A stretch of 64,000 nucleotides of DNA from a virus (taxonomy: Duplodnaviria > Caudoviricetes). Location of the stretch: positions 64,001 to 128,000 of IMG/VR virus record IMGVR_UViG_3300028374_000002. The stretch is one strand, 5' to 3'. The notes under the pieces are model-generated. The model was given only the letters and a program-made list of their open reading frames with translations, had not been told where the DNA came from and ran no database searches. The position numbers and the translations under genes are program-made. Positions 7,461 to 56,510 of the stretch are shown one piece after another (the first letter of the stretch is position 1; each line of letters opens with the position of its first letter).

Positions 7461-8026
7461 TAATCAGATACATTTAAATACTCTTTAAGCTTTAAAATCA
7501 TATAGTCAGTTATCAAATCAGATGTATTTAGTGAATCTACGAATTTAGCATCAACCTTGACAGATTTACTCATAGACTCAGCCTTAGAACCATCACCACT
7601 AGCTAATCCTTCATCATAATCTCTCTCACTCAAAGGAATTATATAGCCATAATATTTATTAGTATGAGCTTTATTTATAAAGAGTGGTTTTAGTTCATCA
7701 AATAAGTAACCATCTTTTATTATTATACCAGCTTCTTCTTCTAATTCTCTTAACACTGCTTCTTCTTTAGACTCCCCCTCTTCTACACCACCACTAAGGA
7801 CTGTTATATGGTACTCCTGCCCTTCTCTATACTTATATGTCGGTATGTACTCATGGCGTATTAAAAATTGATTAGACTCTATGAAATAAGGTATACAGAC
7901 AACTAAATCCTTTTCTTCAATTATAGACCAACCTTCGTAATCAATTACTTTAATATATTCGTTATCAAAGAGAATATTATCTTTCTTTTCTTTAGGTTTC
8001 TTTTTTAAGCTAGAAAATTTGTCCAT
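7457..8026 (-). CDS. NUDIX hydrolase (ADP-ribose pyrophosphatase-like)
   Basis: Nudix box GGVEEGESKEEAVLRELEEEAGI (GX5EX7REUXEEXGU). Confidence 0.9.
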   Translation of the reverse strand: MDKFSSLKKKPKEKKDNILFDNEYIKVIDYEGWSIIEEKDLVVCIPYFIESNQFLIRHEYIPTYKYREGQEYHITVLSGGVEEGESKEEAVLRELEEEAGIIIKDGYLFDELKPLFINKAHTNKYYGYIIPLSERDYDEGLASGDGSKAESMSKSVKVDAKFVDSLNTSDLITDYMILKLKEYLNVSDY

Positions 8027-8070
8027 TATTAGATATTAATTTTACTTATATATTAAAAACAATACATTGC

Positions 8071-8649
8071 TTAACACTCAAAAGGAGGATCTCTGAACAA
8101 ATGGATGTAATCAACACCAAAAATATGCCCTAAATCTTGATGGTTTTTTAAACCACCCATCCTTATTTTTTCATTTATTATATTGAGTGGGTTGTCTAGA
8201 ACATAACCACATATCTCACCATTTTCACAACCTATTTGCTTATCATCTCTCGTAAAAATATCAATTAATAATATCTCTTCCTTGTCCCTTATTCTACCTA
8301 TTAATTTAGATATAAATCCCCTAACAACCTTTTGCTTATGTGGTATTTCAATATATCCTAGTCTATTTACCTCTATATCATTGTCATAGCAATCTCTTAG
8401 AACAAAGGTTTTATATTTATGCGAACAACTTTTTTTAATGATTATATCATAATCATTTGGAAGTCTGTCTATAACTCCGTAAATATATAAGCAAGCTGAT
8501 CCAGTTATTATATAATCTTCTATTTCTTCATCGATAGAATTATATTTATCCTTAAGAATATTAAATCTATCCAAGGAAGGCTTTAAAATAGTTTTGTCAT
8601 TAATTATAGATATTTTATAATTCCTGAAGCACTCTTTAATATTACTCAT
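8071..8649 (-). CDS. Pol-beta-type nucleotidyltransferase domain protein
   Basis: IITGSACL...PNDYDII (GS and DxD motifs) plus distal IDIF. Confidence 0.65.
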   Translation of the reverse strand: MSNIKECFRNYKISIINDKTILKPSLDRFNILKDKYNSIDEEIEDYIITGSACLYIYGVIDRLPNDYDIIIKKSCSHKYKTFVLRDCYDNDIEVNRLGYIEIPHKQKVVRGFISKLIGRIRDKEEILLIDIFTRDDKQIGCENGEICGYVLDNPLNIINEKIRMGGLKNHQDLGHIFGVDYIHLFRDPPFEC

Positions 8650-36008: not shown

Positions 36009-37793
36009 ATGATGAAAGATAATTACTATGTTTATGCACTATTAGATTCGTCTAAACCTGGTGACTATGCTTATAAAAATATAACTTTCAATTATGAACC
36101 CTTTTACATAGGTAAGGGGATTGGTAATAGAATAAAAGAAACACTACATGATAAATCCCCCTTTAAAAGAAACAAGATATCAAAGCTCAAAGAAGAAGGT
36201 ATTGAGATTATAAGTTTTAAAATAAAAATAGAATTATCTAACGAAGATGCTATTCTGTATGAAAAGGAATATATTAAGGTTATTGGAAGAAGAGACAAAT
36301 CAGCTGGTACATTAATAAATTTAACTGATGGTGGTGATGGTAGGCTTAGTAGTAAACCTTCTCAAATAACAAAAAATAAAATATCAAAAACCTATTTAGC
36401 TAAGAATCTAAAGTGGAATCATAAAAAAGAAATTTTAAACAAAATGTCAGACATGCAAAAGGGAAAGGGAAATGGTTTTTATGGCAAGAAACATAGTGAA
36501 GAAACCAAAGACAACCATTCTAATTTAATAAGTGGAAATAACCACCCTATGTATGGAAAGACACATAGTGATGATGTAAAAGCTAAACTTAAAAAACACA
36601 GAGCAAATAAGGTTTCAAATGAGAGTATAAGAAAGGCTTGTCAAGTATTTAATAAAGAAGTTGAAATGTTTGACCTAGATATGAATTATATAAATCTATT
36701 TGATTCAGTCAAATCTGCATCACTAGAAACTAACATAAATGAGTCTATAATATCTAAGTGTTGCAGAGGCGATATCAAAGACCCCACTAGGTATTATTTT
36801 AAATATAAGAATGATTCTGACAATATTAAACAAAACAAGTTTCTGATAAATAAAAATGAGTATTTCTACTATAAAAAAGAAAAGTATAAGCTTGTAAAAA
36901 GAAACAAAAAAACATGTATCTGCCTTGATAGTGATAACCAAGAGATAGTTATACATATAAAAGATTTTAAATATATATTCGAAAAGGCAGAAAACAACTC
37001 AAATATAACTGAACTATTTATGTTTATTAGAAGCATGGACAATACTGCAATATTATTAAATGATGTCATAACATCTAAAAAATTAAAGATAAAATATTGT
37101 GATATCATAAAATATAGCGAAATATTTAGCTCAGATAAAATGACCAAGGAAGACTTTGATGTTATAATATTCAGCGATGAGTGGAAAGATAAAAAAGAAA
37201 TAATAAAATATAGATTAATTAACTTGTATGGGAAGTCTAAAAAAATTGGTGCAAGGAAATGTGATATACGAGAAATAAAGGACAATAGTCTAATTAGAAC
37301 ATTTTTAAACGATAACCATCTACAAGGATTTGTTGGATCTAAAGTAAAGATAGGATTATTCTATGAGGATGAATTAGTATCGCTTATAACATTTGGTTCT
37401 CTTAGAAAGAATTTAGGACAGAAGAGCAAAAAAGACTATTATGAACTTCTTAGGTTCTGTAACAAAAGAGGATTTTCTATAATGGGTGGTGCATCAAAAT
37501 TATTTAAGTATTTTTTAAAAAAATACAATCCCAAGTATATTCTAAGCTATGCTGACTATCGTTGGAGCGAGGGTAATTTATACAAAAAGTTAAATTTCAA
37601 GTATTTAAACAAAACAATATCAAATTACTTCTATATAATAGATTATAATAGAAAGAATAGGTTCAACTTTAGAAAAGACATATTAGTTTCGAATGGGTAT
37701 GATATAAATAAAACTGAAGTTGATATAATGCACGAACAACACCATTATAGAATATGGGATATAGGATCACTAAAATTTACTTATGAAAGATAA
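36009..37793 (+). mobile_element. GIY-YIG homing endonuclease with NUMOD3/NUMOD1, fused to a Hef/Mom-like C-terminal domain
   Basis: YYVYAL...PFYIGKG, LINLTDGGDG, FYGKKHSEETK repeats, SLETNINESIISKCC; C-terminus NHLQG...ELLRFC...GGASKL...SYADYRWSEG. Confidence 0.75.
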
Positions 37794-45216: not shown

Positions 45217-45945
45217 ATGACACCACAATTAGAAAAAGTATTCTTCAGCTATATTCTTTCAAATAGAAAAAAATACTATGAAATAGTTAAACCATTTTTC
45301 TTTAAAAATTCAACAATTCAGTTTGTATATGAGGTTATGAGAAATTACATGCTTACATCCACTGAAACAAAGCCCCCTAGTAATAGGCAAATACTAGATA
45401 TGGTATCATTAGAAGATAAAGAAGGTATCATAACAAAGCCTATGCTCAAATCTATATTAGATGTTAACCTAAGTGAATACAATGAAGTTAATTTTATACT
45501 TCCAAAGTTTAATGGATGGGTGCTGTCTAATAGAATCAAAACTGGAACAGTTGATGTCATAGAGGAAACTAGAAATTTGGATAACATATCAGACTTTGCA
45601 CATGCTGTTGAATCTGCTAATAAAATAAAAAGTATTATCAATGAGATGTCATCTGTAAATTTTGTACAAGATGAAGATATGGGATCTGATTTTGATGAAC
45701 CAGAAAACCATGTTCAAGATTCCTCAAGGTTTAAAGTAAAATGTGGATTCGAAACAATAGACCATATGCTAGGTGGTGGTTGGGATATCTCAACTTTGAA
45801 CGTAATTATGGCTCAAACTAATGGTGGTAAATGTTTTTCTACTAAAACACTTGTAAACACTAGAGTCAAGGACACTAATATTATTAAAGAGATAGAAATC
45901 GGAGAACTATTTAATGATATTAGTAATCAAAATAGTAATAGCTAA
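45217..45945 (+). CDS. dnaB: Replicative helicase gp41/DnaB N-fragment fused to a short split-intein N-half
   Basis: KCGFETIDHMLGGG...LNVIMAQTNGGK ends at the Walker A Lys, then CFSTKTLV... (37 aa) and stop. Confidence 0.85.
   Translation: MTPQLEKVFFSYILSNRKKYYEIVKPFFFKNSTIQFVYEVMRNYMLTSTETKPPSNRQILDMVSLEDKEGIITKPMLKSILDVNLSEYNEVNFILPKFNGWVLSNRIKTGTVDVIEETRNLDNISDFAHAVESANKIKSIINEMSSVNFVQDEDMGSDFDEPENHVQDSSRFKVKCGFETIDHMLGGGWDISTLNVIMAQTNGGKCFSTKTLVNTRVKDTNIIKEIEIGELFNDISNQNSNS
45832..45942 (+). mobile_element. Split intein N-half (37 aa, atypically short) of the helicase
   Basis: Block A CFSTKTLVNTR and the IEIGELF strand, then stop. Confidence 0.85.
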
Positions 45946-46023: not shown

Positions 46024-47184
46024 ATGAATAGTAATTTTAAAATAATAGAAGCCGATTCTCTCTTAGAAGGTGAGTACGACAAACCATTATATGATAAGTT
46101 CGTAGAAGCTTATGGGGTTAATAATTTAGAAGTTGAAACACCACAAGGGTGGATTGATATTGAAGGAATTGGAAAAACTATTAAATATGAAGAATATAAA
46201 CTAATCCTTGCTAATGGGTGTGAATTGATATGTGCAGATGACCATATACTATACAGATGTGATAATCTGAACTTTATTAGTAGGAAGTGTGACATAACAG
46301 AACTATTTTGTAAGAACTTAGAATTAGGTGATTTTATAATGACCAAAGAAGGCCCTGAGATGATAATGGATTTTGATAAGACTGGAAAAGAATCACATAT
46401 GTATGACTTACAACTTGGTGTAGGTTCTGATAAAAAATACTACACTAATGGTATATTAAGTCACAACTCACTTTGGATGCAGAACTTTGCAGTAAAGAGT
46501 GCCAATAGTGGACATAACGTACTATACATTACACTAGAGATGAGTGAAAGAAAAGTTATGAAGAGGTTGGGTTCTATGCGTTTGAAAATACCTATAAATG
46601 ATTATGATACAATATCAAAAGATACTGAACTCATAAGAAGGAAGATAAAGGGATTATCTAGTATATCAGAAAATGATTTATTTGATAAGAAGGTAGGTAA
46701 GATAATGACTAAGTTTTGGGCAGCTGGTACTGCAAATATTGATGACTTTGATTATTATATCCAAAAGTTAAAAGATAAGAGAGATATAAAAATAGATATG
46801 ATTATAGTAGATTATATAACACTCATAGCACCATTAAAAGCACCAGGTGTTGATAGTCTCTATACTAAGGGTAAACAACTTGCTGAAGGTTTGAGGGCAT
46901 TAGGGGCTAAATATTCATGCCCAGTTGTAACTGGTGTACAAGTAGCTAAAGATGCTTGGAATTCATCTGATATAACACTAGAAAGTGTACCAGAATCTAA
47001 GGCTATCGCAGAAACTGCCGACACATTTTTTGCAATAATAAGAACGGAAGAAATGAAAAGGCAAAACCTATTCAGATTTAAACTTCTTAAACAAAGAGAT
47101 GGAGATTTTCTTAAATCACAGGTTAGACTAACATTAAACACGACATATCTAACATTAGAGGGTGATATGTTTGTTGATCAATAA
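46024..47184 (+). CDS. dnaB: Split-intein C-half (148 aa) fused to gp41/DnaB C-fragment
   Basis: LICADDH (block B), MYDLQL...YYTNGILSHN|S (blocks F/G, ends 46467); extein SLWMQN, YITLEMSE, IIVDYITLI, VVTGVQ. Confidence 0.9.
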   Translation: MNSNFKIIEADSLLEGEYDKPLYDKFVEAYGVNNLEVETPQGWIDIEGIGKTIKYEEYKLILANGCELICADDHILYRCDNLNFISRKCDITELFCKNLELGDFIMTKEGPEMIMDFDKTGKESHMYDLQLGVGSDKKYYTNGILSHNSLWMQNFAVKSANSGHNVLYITLEMSERKVMKRLGSMRLKIPINDYDTISKDTELIRRKIKGLSSISENDLFDKKVGKIMTKFWAAGTANIDDFDYYIQKLKDKRDIKIDMIIVDYITLIAPLKAPGVDSLYTKGKQLAEGLRALGAKYSCPVVTGVQVAKDAWNSSDITLESVPESKAIAETADTFFAIIRTEEMKRQNLFRFKLLKQRDGDFLKSQVRLTLNTTYLTLEGDMFVDQ

Positions 47185-48203: not shown

Positions 48204-49400
48204 ATGATAAAGGTAGTAAAAAGAAATGGTAAGAAAGAACCAGTAATGCTAGATAAAATTCTAGATAGAATAGAGCAACAAACTTATGGATTAGATAGAA
48301 AATGGGTAAGTCCATTTGATGTTGCACAAAAAGTAATTGGTGGTGTTGCACCAGATATAAAGACCTCAGTCCTAGATAAACTAGCAACCGAGACAGCTGC
48401 CGCATTAGCTACTAAGCACCCAGATTATTCAATATTAGCATCAAGATTAGCTATAACTGCATTGCATAAAGATACGAAAAAATCATTTTCTGAAACGGTT
48501 AAAGATTTATACAAATATATAAATCCAAAGACAAATGAGAAATCACCAATTGTGTCTAAAAGTTTCTATGAGATTGTTAAGAAAAATGCAGATAAGCTAG
48601 ACTCTGCTATAATACATACTAGAGACCATCATTTTGATTTCTTTGGTTTCAAAACATTAGAGAAGTCTTATTTGTTAAAAATAAATGGTGAAGTTGCAGA
48701 ACGTCCTCAATATATGTATATGAGAACTGCCATACAAATATGGCAAGATAATATTGATAAAGTTATTGAGACATATAATACGATGTCTGAGGGGTATTAC
48801 ACACACGCTACACCAACTTTATTCAATTCTGGTACTAGGAGACCACAATTATCTTCTTGCTTCTTATTAGACACGGAAGATGATTCTATTGAAGGGATAT
48901 TTAACACTCTTAAAGAATCTGCTCAAATATCTAAAAACGCAGGTGGGATAGGTATTAATTTCAATAATGTAAGAGCAAAGGGTAGTTATATAGCAGGTAC
49001 TAACGGTACTTCGAATGGTATAATTCCTTTCTTAAAGATTTATAATGAAACTGCTAGAGCAGTTGACCAGTGCTTTACACCAGAGAGTAAAGTAATAACA
49101 GAGAGAGGTGTTATAAACATAAATGAAGTAGAAAGGGGTGACAAAGTCTTGACTAGTGATGGTGTTTATAATTCTGTCATAAAGAGAAAAGATTTTAATA
49201 AATCAGATGACTTTATAACAATTACAACAAAGAGTGGTGTTAATAGAGTTACTAAAGGTCACCAAATATTAGTTATTAGAGGTTTGGATAAAGACATATC
49301 TAAAGAAGCCATTAAAGAAGGGATTAAGCAAGGTGTATATAATGTAGAATGGATTTCTGCTAATGAATTAATGAAAAGTGATAAAATAGTAAAATACTAA
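48204..49400 (+). CDS. nrdA: Ribonucleotide reductase alpha, fragment 1 (ATP cone...AVDQ) + IntN1
   Basis: VVKRNG ATP cone, HATPTLFNSG, QLSSCF, GGIG; then CFTPES... intein N-half (49071-49397, 109 aa) and stop. Confidence 0.95.
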   Translation: MIKVVKRNGKKEPVMLDKILDRIEQQTYGLDRKWVSPFDVAQKVIGGVAPDIKTSVLDKLATETAAALATKHPDYSILASRLAITALHKDTKKSFSETVKDLYKYINPKTNEKSPIVSKSFYEIVKKNADKLDSAIIHTRDHHFDFFGFKTLEKSYLLKINGEVAERPQYMYMRTAIQIWQDNIDKVIETYNTMSEGYYTHATPTLFNSGTRRPQLSSCFLLDTEDDSIEGIFNTLKESAQISKNAGGIGINFNNVRAKGSYIAGTNGTSNGIIPFLKIYNETARAVDQCFTPESKVITERGVININEVERGDKVLTSDGVYNSVIKRKDFNKSDDFITITTKSGVNRVTKGHQILVIRGLDKDISKEAIKEGIKQGVYNVEWISANELMKSDKIVKY

Positions 49401-49466
49401 TATTTGTAGTTTAATATATATAGTAACAATCCTCTAGGGTTTGTAAAAAATATATTAAACTATAGT

Positions 49467-50390
49467 ATGGTAAAGTGTAATACGGAAGAAACAATTAAAA
49501 AATTTAAAAAAAAGCATAGTAATAAATATAGTTATGAGTTAGTTAAATATAAATCAGCAATATCTAAGGTTAGTATAATATGTAGTAAGCATGGAATATT
49601 TGAGATAACGCCAAATAGTCATTTAAATGGTTCTGGTTGTAGTTTATGTGGTAGAGAAAGAACTGGTGAGAGCAAAAAGTCTGATACATCCTTGTTTGTA
49701 AAATCTGCTAATAGAGTACATTCTCATAAATATAATTATAATAGATGTACCTATATAACAAATTTAGACAATGTTACAATAACTTGTAAAAAACATGGCG
49801 ACTTTTACCAACAAGCTAGAAAGCATTTATCTGGACAAGGCTGTAAAAAATGTGCTAATGAAAGCCAATATTGTAATTTCGTAGAAAAATGTGAGAAAAA
49901 GTATAAAGACTATTTATATAGTAAAGTAAACTACAAAGGTATGTGTAGTGATGTTATAATAACTTGTAAAAAACATGGCGATTTCAGTATTAAAGCTGCC
50001 AATTTTTATCATAAAGGAAGAGGTTGTAAATTATGTAAAACATATAATAAGTCTATTAAAGAAGGCGAATGGTTAGATGATATGGGGATAGATAACATCA
50101 ATAGAAATGTGTATATTAATTTTGGTAAAAAGGTTTTCTGTGTAGATGGTATAGATAAGAAAAGAAAAATAATATACGAATTTTATGGTGACTTTTTCCA
50201 CGGAAATCCTGAAGTTTATAAAAAAACAGATATAAATCCACTTCTTAAAGAAGAATATGGAAAACTTTATAAAAAAACAAAAGATAAAGAAAACATTATT
50301 ATCTCAAATGGATATAAGATAATATATATTTGGGAAAATGATTATAATAAAAATAAAAATAAAAACGGAAAGTATGAAAGAAAACATTGA
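49467..50390 (+). mobile_element. Free-standing endonuclease (3 zinc-ribbon repeats + Vsr/DUF559-like nuclease) between IntN1 and IntC1
   Basis: Three CxxHG...CxxC repeats; VDG...IYEFYGDFFHG. Confidence 0.8.
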
Positions 50391-50574
50391 AAGTGGAACA
50401 GAATGGATTGAAGATCCTGTTGATTTAAATCTAATTATAGACAATTTAGATTTTGAAGGTATAGAGGATATATCAATTAATAAAATAGAGAATCAAAATG
50501 TTCATGATCTAGAGATAGAAAATCAACATAATTATATTGTTGATGGGCTAGGAATAGTTCATAACGGTGGAGGT
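50374..50574 (+). CDS. nrdA: nrdA fragment 2, exon 1: IntC1 (64 aa, ends HN at 50565) + GGG
   Basis: VHDLEIENQHNYIVDGLGIVHN followed by GGT GGA GGT and the intron 5' splice site. Confidence 0.85.
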
Positions 50575-50869
50575 AAATAAGCGTATGCTTCCACTTTAAA
50601 AAATTTGGAGAATTGCTGGGAAATTCTTAGAGTTATCATTACTACAACATAAAGAGTAATCTTAAGTGTGAAAGTTAAAAAAATGATAAATTGGACAATC
50701 AGCAGCCGCCTTTCTTAGGGATAAGAAAAAGGTTCAACGACTAATGAGAGTAATGTAGACCACAAGAAATCAACACGAGCACCAAACACAGAAATGTGAA
50801 GATATAGTCTGATCTTGTATGAAAGTATAAGAAATTAGGATAAAGACCCTAATGATAACAAAGTAAATG
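50575..50869 (+). mobile_element. Group I self-splicing intron (295 nt, no ORF) in nrdA
   Basis: 5' exon ends in U, intron ends in G; IGS GCTTCC (50587-92) pairs with GGAGGT including the U.G wobble; core elements AATTGCTGGGAA (P), AATCAGCAG (Q), GTTCAACGACTA (R), AAGATATAGTCT (S); splicing restores GGG|KRKGS in frame. Confidence 0.95.
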
Positions 50870-51604
50870 AAACGCAAAGGAAGTATAGCCATTTATATGG
50901 AACCATGGCATGCTGATATTATGGAGTTCTTAGATTTAAGAAAAAACCAAGGTAAGGAAGAAATCAGGGCTAGAGATTTATTCCTAGCTATGTGGATGAA
51001 TGACCTATTTATGGAAAGAGTTGATTTGGACAAAGATTGGTCTTTGATGTGTCCTAACGAATGTAAAGGATTGGGTGATACTTATGGTGATGAATTTCGT
51101 GAGTTATACCTTAAATATGAAAGTGAGGGAAAATATAAAAAGGTTGTTAAGGCTAGAGAAGTTTGGAATAAAATCTTAGAGTCTCAAATAGAAACTGGTA
51201 CACCTTATATACTCTATAAAGATACTATTAATGAGAGGTCTAATCAAAAGAATATTGGTGTTATCAAAAGTTCCAATCTTTGTCTAGACGGTAGTAGCTT
51301 GGTAAGATGTAAGATTAATGGTGTTGAAGAAGAACTTGATATGGTTACTATAGATGGTTTGTTTAAAGATGGTAAGGTAATAGAAGTTTTATCTAGAGAT
51401 GTTAAGAATGGTCTTGATGAGTGGTGTCTAGTTGAGAATTCAGGAATGATAAACAATAATGCAGAAACAATTAAAGTAACAGACAAAGAAACTGATAACT
51501 TTATAATATGTACAGAAGATCATAAAATATGGACTGAAAACAGAGGATATATTAAGGCAATTGATTTAAACGTGGATGATATAGTTAAAATTATGGAATC
51601 ATAA
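50870..51604 (+). CDS. nrdA: nrdA fragment 2, exon 2 (KRKGS...SSNL) + IntN2
   Basis: WHADI, ETGTPY, SSNL then CLDGSS...CTEDHKIW intein N-half (51281-51601, 107 aa). Confidence 0.93.
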
Positions 51605-51663
51605 ATATCGGCAAATAAAATTATCAGAAACACACATAATTAATATATAAAATAAAAATAATT

Positions 51664-52515
51664 ATGTGTGTTTCTTCTAATTACTTATATATTATCACTG
51701 ATACAACAAAACCAGGTAACTATGAGTTTGGTAACCTTAAGTTTCAGTTCTTACCATTCTACGTTGGTGTTTCTAATACAGAAACCTATTACAAAAGGGA
51801 AGACGTGCATATAAGGTATGCTAAAATTAAAAAAGATGTTACCAAAAATAAGTATAAGATGAATATAATAAACAAAATACTTAAATCTAATAAAGAACCA
51901 CATATATATAGATTATACGAAAATTCTACAAGAGATTTTATATTTAAAAAAGAAATTGACCTAATACTAATGATTGGTAATAGGTTTGATAAAACAGGAC
52001 CACTAGTGAACATATCAAAAGGTGGTGAAGGTGGTGATACTTTCACAAACAATCCACGCAAGGAAGAAATAAGAGAGAAGCATAGGTTGAATGCAATAGG
52101 ATCTAAAAATAACATGTATGGTTTACCGTTGGAAAAAAGACCATCTCATATTTCAAAACTAAGTGGGACACATTGGAATAAGGATAGTGTTGTAAGCGAT
52201 TCCACTAGAAAGAAACTATCAAATAAGAGCAAAGGTCATAATAATAACAAGTCAAAATTTACACTATTATTTGATAAAGATTTCAATTTTATAAAAGAAT
52301 TTGAATGTTGTATGTATATAGCAGAACATATAGGATCAACAAAAAAAGCTGTTTCAACAACGGCAAGGAGAAATTCGAAAAAAGAAATCCCTTATCACAC
52401 AACAAAAGAATTCTTTATTATATATAAAGAGGACTGGGAAAATAAATTTAAACATAAAGAGGAAGAAATTAAAGAATTTCTTAGAACTTTTAGAAAAAAT
52501 AAAAATCAATTTTAA
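51664..52515 (+). mobile_element. Free-standing GIY-YIG endonuclease between IntN2 and IntC2
   Basis: YLYII...PFYVG, LVNISKGGEGG, NUMOD3-like basic repeats; homologous to the N-terminus of the 36009 ORF. Confidence 0.8.
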
Positions 52516-52540
52516 TAAAAAAATAAAAAAATAAAAAAGC

Positions 52541-53620
52541 ATGATAAAAATAGAAAGAGTAAAAAATAGACCTGTTTATGATATTACAGTAAATAAAAAC
52601 AATAATTTTTATGCAAATAACATATTAGTTCATAATTGTGGTGAGATAGTAGAAGCCACGGGAATTACAAAAGCACAAAAGCCTATATTGGAAAACAAGG
52701 AACTTTTAGAAAAATTAAATCTAGGAGAGTTTTATGGCAAAGAAAGTGTTAATGAGACTGCTGTTTGTAATTTGGCATCTATTGCACTACCTAAGTTTGT
52801 GAATAAGAATAAAACATATAATCATAAAAAGCTATACGAAACTGCTTATACTGCAACTGTAAATCTAAATAATGTAATTGATTATAATTATTATCCTTCT
52901 GAAAATGCTAAATTTTCTAATATATTACACAGACCGATTGGTTTGGGTGTACAAGGATTAGCAGATGTATTTTTCCTAATCGGAATTCCTTATGACTGTG
53001 ATGATGCTAAAGCACTTAATAAAGAAATATTCGAAACTATTTATTACGGAGCTTTATCTGCATCGAATGATTTGGCTAAGGAACAAGGAACATATGAGAC
53101 TTATAAAGGTTCTCCTTTATCAGAGGGTAAATTTCAGTTTGACTTATGGGGTGCTACACCAACAAAAAGATGGGATTGGGAAAAGCTAAGAGTTAAAATA
53201 TTAGAGCATGGTGTTAGAAACTCTTTAACTACGTGTGTTATGCCGACCGCTTCGTGTTTTACTAGTGATGGTACTATATTCACAGAGGATGGTGTAAAGT
53301 CTTATAGAAATATAATGAATGATATGGATATAGATTGGGAGAAAATAGAAGAAACCAATGAGCAAGGATGGATTAAATTTAAAACACCATTAATGGTAGA
53401 AACTAGATTTGGTCTTAGAGAGTCTAATAAAATATTCTACAATGGTCATAAGGAAGTTATAGAAATCGAATTAGAAGATGGGAACATATTTAAATGTACT
53501 GAAAATCATAAGTTCTTAGTAGAAAGGGATGGTGCTGATGAATGGATTACTGCTAATGATTTAGTAGAAAGTGATGAGATTGTTGAAAGTAGCCTAATGC
53601 TCGAAAATACGAGGGAGTAG
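52541..53620 (+). CDS. nrdA: nrdA fragment 3: IntC2 (32 aa) + CGEI...MPTAS + IntN3
   Basis: VYDITV...FYANNILVHN|CGEI; AVCNLASI, RPIGLGVQG, GVRNS, MPTAS|CFTSD... (53255-53617, 121 aa). Confidence 0.95.
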   Translation: MIKIERVKNRPVYDITVNKNNNFYANNILVHNCGEIVEATGITKAQKPILENKELLEKLNLGEFYGKESVNETAVCNLASIALPKFVNKNKTYNHKKLYETAYTATVNLNNVIDYNYYPSENAKFSNILHRPIGLGVQGLADVFFLIGIPYDCDDAKALNKEIFETIYYGALSASNDLAKEQGTYETYKGSPLSEGKFQFDLWGATPTKRWDWEKLRVKILEHGVRNSLTTCVMPTASCFTSDGTIFTEDGVKSYRNIMNDMDIDWEKIEETNEQGWIKFKTPLMVETRFGLRESNKIFYNGHKEVIEIELEDGNIFKCTENHKFLVERDGADEWITANDLVESDEIVESSLMLENTRE

Positions 53621-53665
53621 GCATAGGACAAGGCATCACTTTAATATATAAATAAAAAAGTATTT

Positions 53666-54904
53666 ATGGTTAAAGTGATGTCTAAGTCTTTCTCTTCAAA
53701 GCGAATGTTTTTAAAAAAATTAAAAGGTGTGAAAATAGTTGAAAGTGATATAGAATGTGGTATAGATGAATTATTTGCGTGGTATGGAATACCAGAGAGT
53801 ATAAATTTATGTAAAAAAATTGACATAATAAACCTAAAATTAAATAATAACATCGATGATAGGCAGTTAAAAACATATTTAAAAAAATCATTAAATACTT
53901 TTGAAATTAAAAGGTTTTTATCCTATATTGAATATAAAAGTAATAATCCTAAAGATGTTAGTTCAGAAAATTATTTTAAGTTAGTATATGGTAAAGGTTG
54001 GGAAAATTATAAAGACAAGAAAGCAAAGGATAGAAAATCCCCATATGACTTAGAGTATGTTGCCAAGTCCAATAATATATCAACTGATAAAGCTAAATGT
54101 AAGATATCAAAAATGAAATCAGACAAAGCAACTAACCTAGTTGGATTTATAAGAAGACATGGTAAAGAAAATGGTGAAAAAATGTTTCAAAAATTTCAAT
54201 TAACTAGCAAACATACATTAGAAAAGTATATTAACAAACACGGAAGTATCATAGGATTAGAAAAATGGAATAAGTATTTGTTGGTTAAATCAGAAACTTC
54301 AGCATTTAATAAAAATTTTTGGATTAACAAAGGATTTACTAAAAAAGAATCAATCGCTAAAGTCAGAAAAATATCAGACAATAGTAGTTTGAAATATTTT
54401 ATAAATAAACATAATGGTAATATAGATGTTGCAAAGACTGAATTTATCAAATTTATTAGGAAAAAGGGTGTAAATTTCAATAATGCAAGTAAGGAGTCAT
54501 TAACTTACTTTAATAGTTTGTATAAAAAACTAATAGAATTTGGTATATATGATTGTGATATACACTTAGGTGCATTTGGTAAAAATGAGTTATGCCTTTT
54601 CTATGAAGATGGTTGCTATCTTTATGATTTTGCTATAAAAAGTCATAAGCTAATTATAGAATATCACGGTGAGAGATGGCATCCTAACCCTGATAGATTA
54701 TCTGATAAAGAATGGAATTCGTGGAAATGTATTGCTAGTGGTATCAGTGCAAATGAAAAGCATTTAAGAGATAGGCATAAAGAAAAAGTGGTATATGACA
54801 ATGGTTTCAAATTACTAGAAATATGGTCTAATGATACATATAAACTTAATTGTTATAAAATAAATAACTTTTTAGAAGAAAATAATATAAAAATAAATAA
54901 ATAA
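53666..54904 (+). mobile_element. Free-standing Vsr/DUF559-like endonuclease between IntN3 and IntC3
   Basis: YLYDFAI...LIIEYHGERWH...LLEIWSND. Confidence 0.75.
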
Positions 54905-54906
54905 TT

Positions 54907-55686
54907 ATGAAAATAAAAAAGATTACAAAATCACAAACGACTAAACCTACATGGGATATAGAAGTAGAAGATGTTCACGAGTATCTAACTGGAAATATGT
55001 GTGTGTCACATAATACTGCACAAATACTAGGTAATGAGGCATCTTATGAAGCACAGACCTCTAATATGTACTCTAGAGGAACATTATCAGGTACATTTAT
55101 TATGGTTAATAAGTATCTTGTAAAAGAGCTAGTTAAACAAGGTATATGGGATGATAATATAAGAAAGAAAATTATAACAGAAAATGGTTCTGTTCAAAAC
55201 ATACCAGAGATACCTACAAATCTTAAAGAGATATTTAAGACAGTTTATGAGGTTAAGCAGAAGGATGTTATTGACATGTGTGCTGATAGGGGGGCTTTTG
55301 TTGACCAAACACAATCTATGAATATTTTTATGGATTCTCCAAACTTTGCTAAGCTAACTGCTATGCACTTTTATGGATGGGGTAGAAGAAAATTCTTAAA
55401 AGACGAAAGAGGTCAAGATGTTATACCAAGTGGTGATAATATAGAAATTATTTATAATGAAGATGGTACTCCTAGATTTTATAGAGATAAAAAATCTTGT
55501 CTAAAAACTGGTATATATTATCTAAGGAATAAAGGAGCAGCTGATGCTGTTAAATTTACTACTAAGCAAGTAACAGAAGAAGTTAAAGTTGATGAATCAG
55601 AAATGTCACCAAAAGAATTCCAAACTATGGTTGAAAATTCTAGAAATGCACAAGATGATGATGACTGTTTAATGTGTGGTTCTTAA
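54907..55686 (+). CDS. nrdA: nrdA fragment 4: IntC3 (36 aa) + C-terminal NrdA
   Basis: TWDIEVEDVHEYLTGNMCVSHN|TAQILG; DQTQSMN, KTGIYYLR, C-terminal CLMCGS redox pair. Confidence 0.95.
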   Translation: MKIKKITKSQTTKPTWDIEVEDVHEYLTGNMCVSHNTAQILGNEASYEAQTSNMYSRGTLSGTFIMVNKYLVKELVKQGIWDDNIRKKIITENGSVQNIPEIPTNLKEIFKTVYEVKQKDVIDMCADRGAFVDQTQSMNIFMDSPNFAKLTAMHFYGWGRRKFLKDERGQDVIPSGDNIEIIYNEDGTPRFYRDKKSCLKTGIYYLRNKGAADAVKFTTKQVTEEVKVDESEMSPKEFQTMVENSRNAQDDDDCLMCGS

Positions 55687-55707: not shown

Positions 55708-55740
55708 AAAAACTCTCAATATAATATATTGAGAGTTTTT
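55708..55740. terminator. Bidirectional terminator hairpin
   Basis: AAAACTCTCAATAT-aat-ATATTGAGAGTTTT between convergent genes. Confidence 0.8.
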
Positions 55741-56510
55741 TATTTCCATATGTTTTCTAAATCTATCCTAGCATTAACACCTACTTCTTTTCCATCTTTA
55801 ATTAAAGAATATTTGTTAAAATCTTTGAAAACATTTAGTATTTCCATCATTTTTATAATTTCTTTATGTTCTATATCCTCATTAAATATCTTAACTAAGT
55901 TATCTACCTCATCGTATGATAAGTTTCTTTTATCTTTGAGAAAATGTGTGAAGTCATAGAATAAATCAGAATATTTATGACCCTCTCCGTTTATTTCTTT
56001 TTTGAGTAAAAATTTACTGAGAGATGTTTCAACACCTATTGTTGGCAGGGAATAGATATAGTCGTTGATTTCAAAACATTTATCTTTATTGTTGTACATA
56101 GACATTGTGTCATTGCTTAAATTTATGTAGTTAAAATTCTTATGGCTAAACTCAATATATTTACTCTCTATTGTATCTTCATCGATATAATCAAATCCTA
56201 TTTTTTTACCAATCGTTAGTCTAACTATTTCAATGAAGATAAAAACTATATCTATGCTTCTTATATCTCCAAAATTATATCCTTTTTGAAAAGTTATATT
56301 GTTTATAACAACGGTTTTTATTTTAGCTATTACCATAGATATATCATCTTTTATAAAATTACTCTCATACATTTCTATATCTTGTATACTAGCTTTTCTG
56401 ATTTTCATACTGAAGTCATCTTGATAGAACAGACCCAATGAAGGCAATGTTTTTAATTTAATTACTTTTTCGTTTCCAAAAAATTTTTGTGAAAATTGTG
56501 CCAATTCCAT
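55740..56510 (-). CDS. Probable baseplate hub / tail assembly protein (T4 gp26-like)
   Basis: LPSLGLFY..FSMKIRKASIQD N-terminus typical of this family. Confidence 0.45.
   Translation of the reverse strand: MELAQFSQKFFGNEKVIKLKTLPSLGLFYQDDFSMKIRKASIQDIEMYESNFIKDDISMVIAKIKTVVINNITFQKGYNFGDIRSIDIVFIFIEIVRLTIGKKIGFDYIDEDTIESKYIEFSHKNFNYINLSNDTMSMYNNKDKCFEINDYIYSLPTIGVETSLSKFLLKKEINGEGHKYSDLFYDFTHFLKDKRNLSYDEVDNLVKIFNEDIEHKEIIKMMEILNVFKDFNKYSLIKDGKEVGVNARIDLENIWK

What the first reader, a model, noticed from the sequence alone, without database searches (positions are those of the whole stretch)
48204..55686. nrdA fractured into four polypeptides needing three protein trans-splicing events plus one RNA splicing event
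Seen: NrdA is spread over four ORFs, F1 (..AVDQ|IntN1), F2 (IntC1|GGG-intron-KRKGS..SSNL|IntN2), F3 (IntC2|CGEI..MPTAS|IntN3) and F4 (IntC3|TAQILG..CLMCGS). Removing the intein halves and the intron gives a continuous class Ia NrdA (VDQGGGKRKGS, SNLCGEI, MPTASTAQILG). Known: single fractured genes with a split intein and an intervening endonuclease occur in phages, and the IntC2 +1 Cys is the thiyl-radical cysteine of the NLCxEI motif. Inference: F2 and F3 each carry an IntC at one end and an IntN at the other, so the enzyme is built by an ordered four-piece ligation chain. I cannot recall a natural four-part trans-spliced protein, but I could not search for one.
Basis: partly seen in the sequence, partly recalled or inferred. 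Interest (0 to 1): 0.92.

Follow-up and report, generated by a model that had tools for sequence, protein, structure and literature searches.

The report
Phage RNR gene in four pieces
A huge lake phage encodes the large subunit of its DNA-precursor enzyme as four separate proteins cut apart by three split self-splicing protein elements plus one self-splicing RNA intron; the layout is real and conserved, but one of the three protein joints lacks the residue that normal protein splicing needs.

Summary
nrdA (48204-55686) is cut by three split inteins, each with a free-standing endonuclease gene between its halves, and by a 295-nt group I intron (50575-50869). Fifteen related phage contigs carry an uninterrupted nrdA in which the four extein blocks abut exactly at the predicted junctions. 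Two further assemblies (99.1-99.7% identical, no indels) show the same layout, and exteins differ by 20 synonymous against 3 non-synonymous changes. Divergent lineages (L026, L032/L033) also have four pieces, and 33 protein clusters are middle fragments with an intein half at each end.

Inteins 2 (+1 Cys, the thiyl-radical cysteine) and 3 (+1 Thr) are canonical. Intein 1 has Gly at +1 in all 66 homologue clusters, so it cannot splice by the standard route. It may ligate by amine attack on the thioester, as type A BIL domains do, or only cleave.

Contiguous inteins with Gly +1 sit at the same RNR site in bacteria, in one case in the only RNR large-subunit gene of a complete Chlamydiales chromosome. 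A cultured Klebsiella jumbo phage has a three-piece version.

I found no paper describing a natural multi-split gene. The scan has many single-fracture RNR notes on other genomes; among the eight of 32 shown, none was multi-split on other DNA.

The parts
48204..49070 (+). Extein 1 of nrdA (289 aa): ATP-cone, all-alpha domain and start of the barrel. Ends ..ARAVDQ, where the Gln aligns with human RRM1 Q288 in loop 2.
   Evidence: Pfam ATP-cone, Ribonuc_red_lgN and lgC positions 1-72. Gapless alignment to human RRM1 residues 2-288, E 6e-111. Abuts extein 2 in 15 uninterrupted homologues.
49071..49400 (+). IntN1 (109 aa plus stop): starts CFTPES and has block B VTKGH. Net charge +3.
   Evidence: Sub-threshold Pfam Hint and Hint_2 hits. 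80 homologue clusters keep Cys1 and the T-x-x-H Thr and His at 99% or more, invariant or nearly so. Complex model with IntC1.
49467..50390 (+). HE1: free-standing putative homing endonuclease (307 aa). It has three CxKHG..GxGCxxC zinc-finger-like repeats and a Vsr-like C-terminal part. It overlaps the start of IntC1.
   Evidence: PHROG 681 'endonuclease' E 8e-30 and PHROG 559 E 4e-26. Pfam DUF723 is only sub-threshold here, but relatives carry a precomputed hit. HE1 is lost in L026 and L032.
50374..50565 (+). IntC1 (64 aa from the conserved start; an upstream ATG at 50338 would give 76 aa). Blocks F and G read VHDLEIENQHNY..GIVHN. Net charge about -12 to -14.
   Evidence: Weak Pfam Intein_splicing hit. 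66 homologue clusters all end ..HN followed by GGG.
50566..50574 (+). End of exon 1: GGT GGA GGT (Gly-Gly-Gly). The first Gly is the +1 residue of intein 1, so there is no Cys, Ser or Thr nucleophile. The final U is the 5' splice-site U of the intron's P1 U.G pair.
   Evidence: Sequence. P1 pairing in the Rfam alignment. U.G kept in 5 of 5 relatives.
50575..50869 (+). ORF-less group I intron (295 nt) with an in-frame stop (AAA TAA) right after the 5' splice site. It ends in G at 50869.
   Evidence: RF00028 56.7 bits, E 5e-14. Homologous introns score 76.1 and 64.4 bits. 34 of 83 predicted pairs show compensatory changes.
50870..51280 (+). Exon 2, the rest of extein 2 (KRKGS..KSSNL, 137 aa).
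   Evidence: Pfam lgC positions 75-213. Aligns to human RRM1 292-430. Contiguous with exteins 1 and 3 in uninterrupted homologues.
51281..51604 (+). IntN2 (107 aa plus stop): starts CLDGSS and has block B CTEDH. Net charge -11.
   Evidence: Matches the solved NrdJ-1 intein 8ubs, E 2.7e-7. A contiguous version sits at the same site in L025.
51664..52515 (+). HE2: free-standing putative GIY-YIG-type endonuclease (283 aa).
   Evidence: Only a sub-threshold Pfam LEM-3 GIY-YIG hit, E 0.018. 62% identical to the gene in the same position in L029. Absent in L026.
52541..52636 (+). IntC2 (32 aa), ..NNFYANNILVHN. The +1 residue is Cys.
   Evidence: Pfam. 33 clusters of fragments with an intein half at each end keep the IntC2 ..VHN end followed by the C-x-E-I extein start in the rows checked.
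52637..53254 (+). Extein 3 (206 aa), CGEIVE..MPTAS. Its first Cys is the thiyl-radical cysteine of the N-x-C-x-E motif (human C429).
   Evidence: Alignments to human RRM1. Contiguity in homologues.
53255..53620 (+). IntN3 (121 aa plus stop): starts CFTSDG and has block B CTENH. Net charge -16.
   Evidence: Pfam Intein_splicing. A contiguous mini-intein sits at the same site in L029/L030.
53666..54904 (+). HE3: free-standing putative Vsr/DUF559-like endonuclease (412 aa; ..EYHGERWH..).
   Evidence: PHROG 22677 E 2.6e-11, shared with the HE1 C-terminal part. Sub-threshold DUF559 and MTES_1575 hits. Absent in L026.
54907..55014 (+). IntC3 (36 aa), ..GNMCVSHN. The +1 residue is Thr.
   Evidence: Pfam. 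tblastn in relatives.
55015..55686 (+). Extein 4 (223 aa plus stop), TAQILG..YY..CLMCGS.
   Evidence: Aligns to human RRM1 608 to the end, including the YY pair and the C-terminal CLMCGS. Contiguous with extein 3 in homologues.

Best explanation
This is a working ribonucleotide reductase large-subunit gene of an uncultured huge lake phage. The phage has a T4-type capsid gene, and its closest GenBank phage record (uninterrupted extein 3, 74% identity) is 642 kb. Four selfish elements have invaded the gene at its most conserved sites, and the gene is put back together after transcription and translation.

Proposed steps:
1. The roughly 7.5-kb locus is transcribed (inferred).
2. The 295-nt group I intron splices itself out, joining 50574 to 50870. 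This fuses IntC1-GGG to KRKGS..SSNL-IntN2. The RNA structure is shown; the splicing is inferred.
3. Four proteins are made: F1 (398 aa), F2 (about 311 aa), F3 (359 aa) and F4 (259 aa). Three homing endonucleases are also made.
4. The three pairs of intein halves find each other. They belong to three different intein families (under 34% identical). Pair 1 has a charge pattern opposite to that of pair 2, and IntN3 is strongly acidic like IntN2. Association is modelled for pair 1 and inferred for the others.
5. Inteins 2 and 3 ligate their flanks by ordinary class 1 trans-splicing (Cys1, T-x-x-H, His-Asn, +1 Cys or +1 Thr). This restores ..SSNL-CGEI.. and ..MPTAS-TAQILG..
6. Intein 1 keeps Cys1, T-x-x-H, the block F Asp and His-Asn, but its +1 residue is Gly. 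It most likely forms the N-terminal thioester and cuts its C-terminal junction by Asn cyclisation. The freed Gly amine then attacks the thioester, as proposed for type A BIL domains, and restores ..VDQ-GGGKRKGS.. in specificity loop 2. This step is inferred and is the least certain.

The product would be an 858-aa, 97.5-kDa alpha subunit. The endonuclease genes only serve to spread the elements. They have been lost in some lineages, which remain split.
For: - Junctions are exact. In 15 related contigs the four extein blocks are adjacent in the DNA.
- Pfam profile positions and human RRM1 residues run on without loss across the junctions.
- RNR catalytic residues are all present: LSSCF, N-x-C-x-E, the YY pair and C-terminal CLMCGS.
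- It is not an assembly artefact. L006 and L031 repeat the layout at 99.7% and 99.1% identity with no indels. 23 lake and salt-lake metagenome studies hold at least 58% of the sampled words.
- Selection is visible. Between close variants, exteins show 20 synonymous against 3 non-synonymous changes. Against the four-piece lineages L026 and L032, dN/dS is 0.06-0.15 for exteins and 0.04-0.31 for all six intein halves.
- Four pieces recur in divergent lineages: L026, with the endonuclease genes lost, and L032/L033. 33 clusters are IntC2-extein-IntN3 fragments.
- The intron is well supported: RF00028 at 56.7, 76.1 and 64.4 bits, a U.G pair at the 5' splice site in 5 of 5 sequences, and 34 of 83 pairs compensated. 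L027 has no ATG before exon 2, so splicing is needed to translate it.
- Intein 1 chemistry looks selected. Cys1 and the T-x-x-H Thr and His are conserved at 99% or more in 80 clusters, and His-Asn followed by GGG is invariant in 66 clusters.
- IntN1 with IntC1 in a complex model: score 0.71 against a best control of 0.01. That mark was reached by 51 of 78 solved complexes and 2 of 108 mismatched pairs. The runs agree in at least 95% of contacts and the partner's pLDDT is at least 71. Split-intein complexes have been solved, so the pass may reflect likeness to known structures.
- Gly +1 inteins appear compatible with function. Contiguous inteins at the same Q|G site with ..HN|GG occur in at least 17 representative clusters and in 8 bacterial genomes. 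In a complete Chlamydiales chromosome the intein lies in the only PF02867 gene.
- There is a mechanistic precedent: type A BIL domains (Mills, Johnson and Perler 2014, PMC4031507, read).
Against: - There is no RNA or protein evidence of any kind.
- With Gly at +1 the standard branched intermediate cannot form, and cleavage products dominate in type A BILs (PMC4031507).
- No nrdB and no other RNR gene were found in the 201-kb record. The record is only about 28% of a genome, so a second intact nrdA elsewhere cannot be excluded.
- dS is about 1 or higher in the between-lineage comparisons, so those ratios are rough.
- The endonuclease family assignments rest on sub-threshold Pfam hits.
Confidence: 0.7

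Rival explanations
1. Everything is as in the best explanation, except that intein 1 only cleaves. Its halves bring F1 and F2 together and then cut themselves off, by thioester hydrolysis at the N-terminal junction and Asn cyclisation at the C-terminal one. The active alpha subunit is then two chains, nicked between Gln and Gly in loop 2 and held together non-covalently.
For: Gly at +1 rules out the canonical route. In type A BILs cleavage products dominate (PMC4031507). A phage NrdA made of two non-covalently associated chains is known to be active in Aeromonas phage Aeh1 (described in PMC2677866 and PMC3045599). Conservation of Cys1 and His-Asn is explained equally well by cleavage.
Against: Uninterrupted homologues keep VDQGGGKRKGS intact. 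By my own knowledge of yeast and human RNR, loop 2 carries the signal between the specificity site and the active site, so a nick there might be costly. The same intein family sits in the sole RNR gene of a complete Chlamydiales genome, where an efficient outcome is expected. That observation does not, however, distinguish ligation from cleavage.
Confidence: 0.25
2. The gene is decaying. The phage relies on a host RNR or on another copy, and the fragments are on their way to being lost, as was proposed for interrupted nrdA genes of Campylobacter phages.
For: Dwivedi et al. 2013 (PMC3653736) read multiply interrupted Campylobacter-phage nrdA genes as degenerating, and CPt10 annotates its copy as a pseudogene. 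No nrdB was found in this record, and the record is incomplete.
Against: No frameshift or stop lies inside any extein or intein half in three assemblies. Exteins show 20 synonymous against 3 non-synonymous changes. dN/dS is well below 1 for exteins and inteins between lineages that share the layout. All catalytic residues are kept. The layout persists in lineages about 20-25% diverged in protein sequence.
Confidence: 0.04
3. The stops are sequencing or assembly errors, or a chimera, and the real gene is continuous.
For: None beyond the general risk that comes with metagenome assemblies.
Against: The interruptions are 0.3-1.4 kb insertions that encode recognisable intein halves, endonucleases and a group I intron; they are not point errors. 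Three assemblies from different samples agree without indels. Dozens of diverged homologous loci show the same boundaries.
Confidence: 0.01

Closest known systems
'Fractured genes' of Dassa, London, Stoddard, Schueler-Furman and Pietrokovski 2009 (PMC2677866), including the NrdA-1 to NrdA-7 and NrdJ-1 loci
   Same: A conserved DNA-metabolism gene is broken by a split intein, with a free-standing GIY-YIG or Vsr-like endonuclease gene between the halves, all on one strand. Their NrdA site, directly N-terminal to the thiyl-radical Cys, is the site of intein 2 here. IntN2 matches the solved NrdJ-1 intein (8ubs, E 2.7e-7).
   Different: That paper describes one fracture per gene, working from short reads. 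Here three fractures and an intron lie in one gene, which gives middle fragments with an intein half at each end. One of the three inteins has no +1 nucleophile.
Trichodesmium erythraeum RNR gene with four inteins and three group II introns (Liu, Yang and Meng 2003, J Biol Chem; recalled from memory, title phrase confirmed in reference lists)
   Same: A single RNR gene carries several inteins as well as self-splicing introns.
   Different: By my recollection those inteins are contiguous (cis-splicing) and the introns are group II. One polypeptide is made, not four.
Klebsiella phage KP13-7 nrdA (OP617745.1, Alcyoneusvirus, cultured; found here)
   Same: Same sites 2 and 3. hyp39 is extein plus IntN, followed by a GIY-YIG gene. 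hyp41 is IntC (..VHN|CEI) plus extein plus IntN, followed by an HNH gene. nrdA_2 is IntC (..SHN|TSS) plus extein. There is also an interruption in the loop-2 codons (nrdA_1 ends SCSQG*) that contains an HNH ORF and a sub-threshold group I intron match (43.3 bits).
   Different: It has two split inteins, not three, so three polypeptides. There is no intein at the Q|G site. The RNR is E. coli-like and only about 26-31% identical. The pieces are annotated as hypothetical proteins.
Campylobacter phages CPt10 and vB_CcoM-IBB_35 nrdA (FN667789.1, HM246724.1; discussed as degenerating in PMC3653736)
   Same: Up to three inteins lie in one phage nrdA. The one at the N-x-C-x-E site is split by inserted ORFs.
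   Different: The inteins at the other sites are contiguous. The first intein of IBB_35 sits four residues further downstream (after GRGG) and has a normal +1 Ser. Only two polypeptides result.
Type A bacterial intein-like (BIL) domains (Amitai 2003; Dassa 2004; Aranko 2013; as summarised in PMC4031507)
   Same: Cys1 and a C-terminal His-Asn with no +1 nucleophile. The proposed ligation is attack of the freed C-fragment amine on the N-terminal thioester.
   Different: By my own knowledge, BILs sit in variable, non-essential bacterial proteins and have no homing endonuclease. Intein 1 sits at an invariant site of an essential enzyme, is split, and is linked to an endonuclease gene. Sequence membership in the BIL family was not tested.
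Engineered tandem protein trans-splicing with orthogonal split inteins (for example Pinto et al. 2020, PMC7090010)
   Same: A protein is assembled in one pot from three or more fragments, using mutually orthogonal split inteins.
   Different: Those systems are man-made. This would be a natural, co-evolved set of three.

Membership tests
Fractured gene (split intein plus free-standing endonuclease; Dassa et al. 2009) | The N-part of a conserved enzyme is fused in frame to an N-intein, and the C-intein is fused in frame to the C-part, on the same strand. | tested here: met
   Met three times over. The exteins abut in uninterrupted homologues.
Fractured gene (split intein plus free-standing endonuclease; Dassa et al. 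2009) | A free-standing homing-endonuclease gene (GIY-YIG or Vsr-like) lies between the two intein halves. | tested here: inconclusive
   An ORF of 283-412 aa lies in each gap. HE1 hits PHROG endonuclease families at E 8e-30. The GIY-YIG, DUF559 and DUF723 assignments are sub-threshold in Pfam. Nuclease activity was not tested.
Class 1 intein | N-terminal Cys or Ser, block B T-x-x-H, and a C-terminal His-Asn. | tested here: met
   Intein 1: CFTPES, VTKGH and VHN. Intein 2: CLDGSS, CTEDH and VHN. Intein 3: CFTSDG, CTENH and SHN. For intein 1, Cys1 and the T-x-x-H Thr and His are kept at 99% or more in 80 clusters, and His-Asn is invariant in 66 clusters.
Class 1 intein | Cys, Ser or Thr as the first residue of the C-extein (+1 nucleophile). 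| tested here: not met
   Met for intein 2 (Cys) and intein 3 (Thr). Not met for intein 1: the +1 residue is Gly in the window, in all 66 IntC1 clusters and in the contiguous relatives. Intein 1 should therefore not be filed as a class 1 intein.
Type A BIL domain | A Hint domain with Cys1 and a C-terminal His-Asn, but no +1 nucleophile. | tested here: met
   This is a likeness in chemistry only.
Type A BIL domain | Sequence membership in the BIL family, and residence in variable bacterial proteins rather than at conserved sites of housekeeping enzymes. | not tested
   No BIL profile was available. Pfam gives only sub-threshold Hint and Hint_2 hits. The best solved match of IntN1 is the Drosophila Hedgehog Hint domain 1AT0, E 0.0024. 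The genomic setting is that of an intein: a conserved enzyme site with a linked endonuclease gene.
Group I intron (Rfam RF00028) | A score above the curated gathering threshold over the full model. | tested here: met
   56.7 bits against 50, model positions 1-253. Relatives score 76.1 and 64.4 bits. A 14-kb scan missed it because of the speed filters.
Group I intron (Rfam RF00028) | P1 with a U.G pair at the 5' splice site, a terminal G, and helices supported by covariation. | tested here: met
   U50574 pairs with the G of GCUUCCAC, and the intron ends in G50869. The U.G pair is kept in 5 of 5 sequences, and 34 of 83 pairs show compensatory changes.
Group I intron (Rfam RF00028) | Self-splicing activity. 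| not testable with these tools
   No RNA run was listed.
Class Ia RNR large subunit (NrdA, eukaryote-like) | ATP-cone, all-alpha domain and barrel, with the catalytic Cys/Asn/Cys/Glu residues, the YY pair and C-terminal redox cysteines. | tested here: met
   Pfam. Alignments to human RRM1 show LSSCF, SSNL with CGEI, AVCNLAS, GIYYLR and CLMCGS.

The most novel reading that the evidence does not exclude
Intein 1 belongs to a large, so far undescribed family of true inteins. Members are mobile, linked to endonucleases, and sit at an invariant site of an essential enzyme in phages and in bacteria. They join their flanks without any +1 side-chain nucleophile, by direct attack of the freed Gly amine on the Cys1 thioester. 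In this phage the family works in trans beside two canonical split inteins. The RNR alpha subunit would then be made by a natural one-pot ligation of four polypeptides using three mutually orthogonal, co-evolved split inteins and two different ligation chemistries.
Probability: 0.4. Interest if true: 0.9.

Novelty: new variant of a known kind. Interest (0 to 1): 0.8.

Why it matters
Split inteins are the main tools of protein semisynthesis, and sets of orthogonal pairs are currently engineered one at a time. A natural gene that depends on three different split inteins at once offers a ready-made set that evolved to work together in one cell without cross-reaction.

Intein 1 has no nucleophile at its C-terminal junction, yet it is strictly conserved. 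It also occurs as a contiguous intein in the only RNR large-subunit gene of a complete Chlamydiales genome. This bears on whether protein splicing always needs a +1 Cys, Ser or Thr. If intein 1 ligates, it would allow traceless ligation at Gly. If it only cleaves, it shows that an essential enzyme tolerates a permanent nick in its specificity loop.

The relatives also display every stage on one gene: uninterrupted, contiguous mini-intein, split with an endonuclease gene, and split with the endonuclease gene lost. That supports the 2009 proposal that endonuclease invasion creates split inteins.

Finally, multiply interrupted phage nrdA genes that have been annotated as pseudogenes or hypothetical proteins may need to be re-read.

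Tried and rejected
- **Giant-virus origin.** I considered it because the RNR is human-like and the record is rated 28% complete at 201 kb. I rejected it: a T4-type Gp23 capsid gene is present, and relatives' contigs reach 483-629 kb, with a 642-kb uncultured phage record as the closest phage match. The NCLDV capsid search found nothing, but its controls did not ring either.
- **First Rfam scan.** A scan of 14 kb found no intron. This was a filter effect; the 341-nt search found it.
- **Alternative splice sites that would put a Cys, Ser or Thr at +1 of intein 1.** Rejected. Gly follows the His-Asn codons directly. The P1 pairing fixes the 5' splice site after GGU. An in-frame TAA lies two codons upstream of exon 2.
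- **Independent translation of exon 2 from the ATG at 50867-50869.** This is possible in this phage, but it is not conserved: L027 has CAG there. No conserved ribosome-binding motif was seen.
- **Promoter and terminator scan.** Uninformative: 54 promoter-like sites against 54.5 expected. The only notable feature is a palindrome just after the stop codon, at 55708-55740.
- **Expression.** No RNA holder was listed.
- **A second nrdA in the large four-piece contigs.** The search could not be run because those records are not held.
- **Literature.** Ten searches found only single natural fractures and engineered multi-split systems. None found a report of a natural multi-split gene or of an RNR intein with Gly at +1. 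The library does not hold most subscription-journal papers, so prior description cannot be excluded.

Full report
**What is in the sequence.** Between 48204 and 55686 the + strand carries, in order:

- F1 (48204-49400)
- an endonuclease-like ORF, HE1 (49467-50390)
- a short ORF ending ..GIVHNGGGK* (50338 or 50374 to 50580)
- about 290 nt without a reading frame
- an ORF starting MKRKGS (50867-51604)
- HE2 (51664-52515)
- F3 (52541-53620)
- HE3 (53666-54904)
- F4 (54907-55686)

Pfam places the four nrdA-like ORFs on consecutive parts of the RNR barrel profile (positions 1-72, 75-213, 190-392 and 391-514). It also finds Hint or intein-splicing signals at their ends. Against solved structures the pieces align best to human RRM1, in order and without loss:

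- F1 residues 3-289 align to RRM1 2-288.
- KRKGS..SSNL aligns to 292-430.
- F3 aligns from 436 to 607.
- F4 aligns from 608 to the C-terminal CLMCGS.

The active-site and radical-transfer residues are all present: LSSCF, N-x-C-x-E, AVCNLAS, the YY pair and the C-terminal C-x-x-C.

**The junctions are exact.** A scan of IMG/VR with F3 returned 15 contigs (L007-L021, up to 483 kb) whose nrdA is uninterrupted. With the window's pieces as queries, the four extein blocks map to adjacent DNA with no base between them. In L008, for example, extein 1 ends at 7580, extein 2 covers 7581-8000, extein 3 covers 8001-8618, and extein 4 starts at 8619. Protein identity is 60-89%. So all seven inserted segments are insertions into an ancestrally continuous gene, and the extein limits inferred from the intein motifs are right. 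The joined product is 858 aa and 97.5 kDa.

**The RNA element.**

- Searched alone, 50565-50831 matches Rfam Intron_gpI over the whole model at 56.7 bits (gathering score 50, E 5e-14). Exon bases GUGGAGGU pair with GCUUCCAC in P1, and U50574 forms the U.G pair that marks a group I 5' splice site.
- The intron is 50575-50869 and ends in G. An in-frame TAA follows the splice site by one codon.
- The homologous introns of L026 and L029 score 76.1 and 64.4 bits.
- In a five-sequence alignment 34 of 83 predicted pairs carry compensatory changes, and the U.G pair is kept in all five.
- L027 has CAG instead of ATG before exon 2. Exon 2 therefore has no conserved start of its own, and RNA splicing is the conserved way to translate it.

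**The three inteins.** Each has an N-terminal Cys, a block B T-x-x-H and a C-terminal His-Asn.

| Intein | Insertion site | +1 residue | Notes |
|---|---|---|---|
| 1 | Gln\|Gly of VDQGGGKRKGS | Gly | This stretch is specificity loop 2, by my own knowledge of yeast and human R1 |
| 2 | SSNL\|CGEI | Cys (the thiyl-radical cysteine) | Same NrdA site as in the 2009 'fractured genes' paper (PMC2677866); IntN2 matches the solved NrdJ-1 intein |
| 3 | MPTAS\|TAQILG | Thr | |

The three are under 34% identical to one another. Pair 1 is N +3 and C about -12. Pair 2 is N -11 and C +3. Pair 3 is N -16 and C 0. This fits three non-cross-reacting pairs, though cross-reaction was not tested. Nothing in the anatomy imposes an order on the reactions.

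**The problem with intein 1.** Its +1 residue is Gly, so the transesterification step of every known intein class cannot occur. This is not a quirk of one sequence:

- 66 protein clusters homologous to IntC1 (60-87% identical) all end ..HN-GGG, then one codon and a stop. All therefore also have the break where the intron lies.
- 80 clusters of F1-type proteins keep Cys1 and the T-x-x-H Thr and His at 99% or more.
- An all-against-library HMMER search with IntN1 found 46 representatives with [D/N]-Q|C at this RNR site. At least 17 are contiguous inteins of 171-388 aa ending with Asn (mostly His-Asn) followed by Gly-Gly. Another 16 end in the N-half.
- One contiguous case is from Undibacterium (WP_322118607.1). 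Eight more are in bacterial genomes.
- In a complete Chlamydiales chromosome the intein-bearing ORF is the only match to the RNR barrel family.

So a large intein family lives at a site with no +1 nucleophile and appears compatible with function. The known precedent for the chemistry is the type A BIL domain. There a thioester forms at Cys1, Asn cyclisation frees the C-fragment, and its amine attacks the thioester. Cleavage products dominate in those domains (PMC4031507). I cannot tell ligation from cleavage-only with these tools.

A complex model of IntN1 with IntC1 scored 0.71 against a best control of 0.01. That mark was reached by 51 of 78 solved complexes and 2 of 108 mismatched pairs. 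The runs agree in at least 95% of contacts and the partner's pLDDT is at least 71. Because split-intein complexes have been solved, this shows likeness to them rather than binding.

**It is real and under selection.**

- L006 and L031, from other samples, repeat the whole 7.7 kb at 99.7% and 99.1% identity with no indels.
- Against L031 the exteins differ by 20 synonymous and 3 non-synonymous changes, the intein halves by 13 and 11, and the endonucleases by 8 and 10.
- 23 lake and salt-lake metagenome studies hold at least 58% of the sampled words.
- Against the four-piece lineages L026 and L032, dN/dS is 0.06-0.15 for exteins and 0.04-0.31 for every intein half. dS is near or above 1, so these ratios are rough.

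**It is not unique.**

- L026 (a 566-kb contig) has the same four pieces with all three endonuclease genes gone apart from a 35-aa remnant.
- L032 and L033 have four pieces with HE1 missing.
- L025 has a split intein 1 plus the intron, a contiguous intein 2 and no intein 3.
- L029 and L030 have split inteins 1 and 2 and a contiguous mini-intein 3.
- L034, a more distant lineage, has two split inteins and three pieces.
- The 120 best F3 homologue clusters break down as follows:

| Architecture | Clusters |
|---|---|
| IntC2-extein 3-IntN3 | 33 |
| IntC2-extein 3-extein 4 | 56 |
| Extein 2-extein 3-IntN3 | 11 |
| Start at extein 2 and run to the end | 15 |
| Contain a contiguous intein 3 | 3 |

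- Among cultured phages, Klebsiella phage KP13-7 has a three-polypeptide nrdA with two split inteins at sites 2 and 3, and an interruption in the loop-2 codons. The pieces are annotated as hypothetical proteins.
- Campylobacter phages have up to three inteins with one split, annotated as a pseudogene. Dwivedi et al. 2013 read these as degenerating.

**Context.** The record has a T4-type major capsid gene. The closest GenBank phage is a 642-kb uncultured phage, which fits the 28% completeness estimate. No nrdB, NrdD or second nrdA lies in the 201 kb.

**Verdict.** The reading is right in outline but overstated on one point: two joints are ordinary trans-splicing, and the third needs either a non-canonical ligation or none at all. 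Fractured genes and multi-intein RNR genes are known. Within the searchable literature I found no description of a natural gene that needs several split inteins at once, or of an intein family with Gly at +1. I class it as a new variant of a known kind, with high interest because of intein 1.

Noticed in passing
window 45217-45945 and 46024-47184 (+): The DnaB/gp41-like helicase just upstream is also fractured. The N-part ends ..AQTNGGK|CFSTK.. with a short N-intein of about 37 aa inside the Walker A motif. The C-part starts with a long C-intein of about 152 aa ending ..GILSHN|SLWMQ. Only 78 nt, and no endonuclease gene, lie between them. The exteins abut at about residue 205/206 of the uninterrupted helicases in L025 and L029. 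This looks like an atypically split intein.
   Followed up: partly
G000:C1:166644-169991 (-), which is L035:245-3592, outside the window: A 1115-aa ORF is a T4-type large terminase (Terminase_6N, E 4e-14) carrying at least one contiguous intein (Intein_splicing E 1.5e-15, residues about 665-1029).
   Followed up: partly
L036-L043; P0295 (WP_322118607.1); OY969554.1: Contiguous inteins of 171-388 aa with Gly at +1 (..VNQ|CFAP...AHN|GGKRKGA) sit at the same loop-2 site of nrdA in Burkholderiaceae, Chlamydiae, Pseudomonas and Actinomycetes genomes. In a complete 2.07-Mb Chlamydiales chromosome this is the only RNR barrel-family gene.
   Followed up: partly
L046 (Klebsiella phage KP13-7, OP617745.1:30877-36407): This cultured jumbo phage has nrdA in three polypeptides with two split inteins. 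It also has an HNH ORF, with a sub-threshold group I intron match (43.3 bits), in the interruption of the loop-2 codons. The middle pieces are annotated as hypothetical proteins.
   Followed up: partly
window 48204-55686: The phage RNR alpha subunit is far closer to eukaryotic R1 (human RRM1, E 6e-111 over extein 1, gapless) than to E. coli NrdA (E about 6e-22). It ends in the same CLMCGS as the human protein. Relative to human it has an insertion of about 28 aa after CGEIVE and one of about 37 aa in extein 4.
   Followed up: no
window 49071-49090: IntN1 starts CFTPES, the same six residues as the Drosophila Hedgehog autoprocessing domain. Its best solved-structure match is that Hint domain (1AT0, E 0.0024) rather than any intein.
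   Followed up: no
window 50566-50869, and the same place in relatives: The intron lies only 9 nt downstream of the intein 1 insertion point. In all 66 IntC1 clusters the reading frame stops one or two codons after GGG. So in this phage clade split intein 1 and the intron always occur together and may move as one composite element. KP13-7 has an interruption 3 nt after the Gln codon without an intein.
   Followed up: partly
L032:9078-10574 and window 36009-37793: The gene between IntN3 and IntC3 in L032 is a 498-aa protein with a weak precomputed Pfam Mom hit. The window ORF 36009-37793 has a GIY-YIG-like N-terminus fused to a long C-terminal domain.
   Followed up: no
window 55708-55740: A 15-bp perfect palindrome lies between the nrdA stop codon and the convergent ORF 55740-56510. 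It is a likely bidirectional terminator.
   Followed up: no
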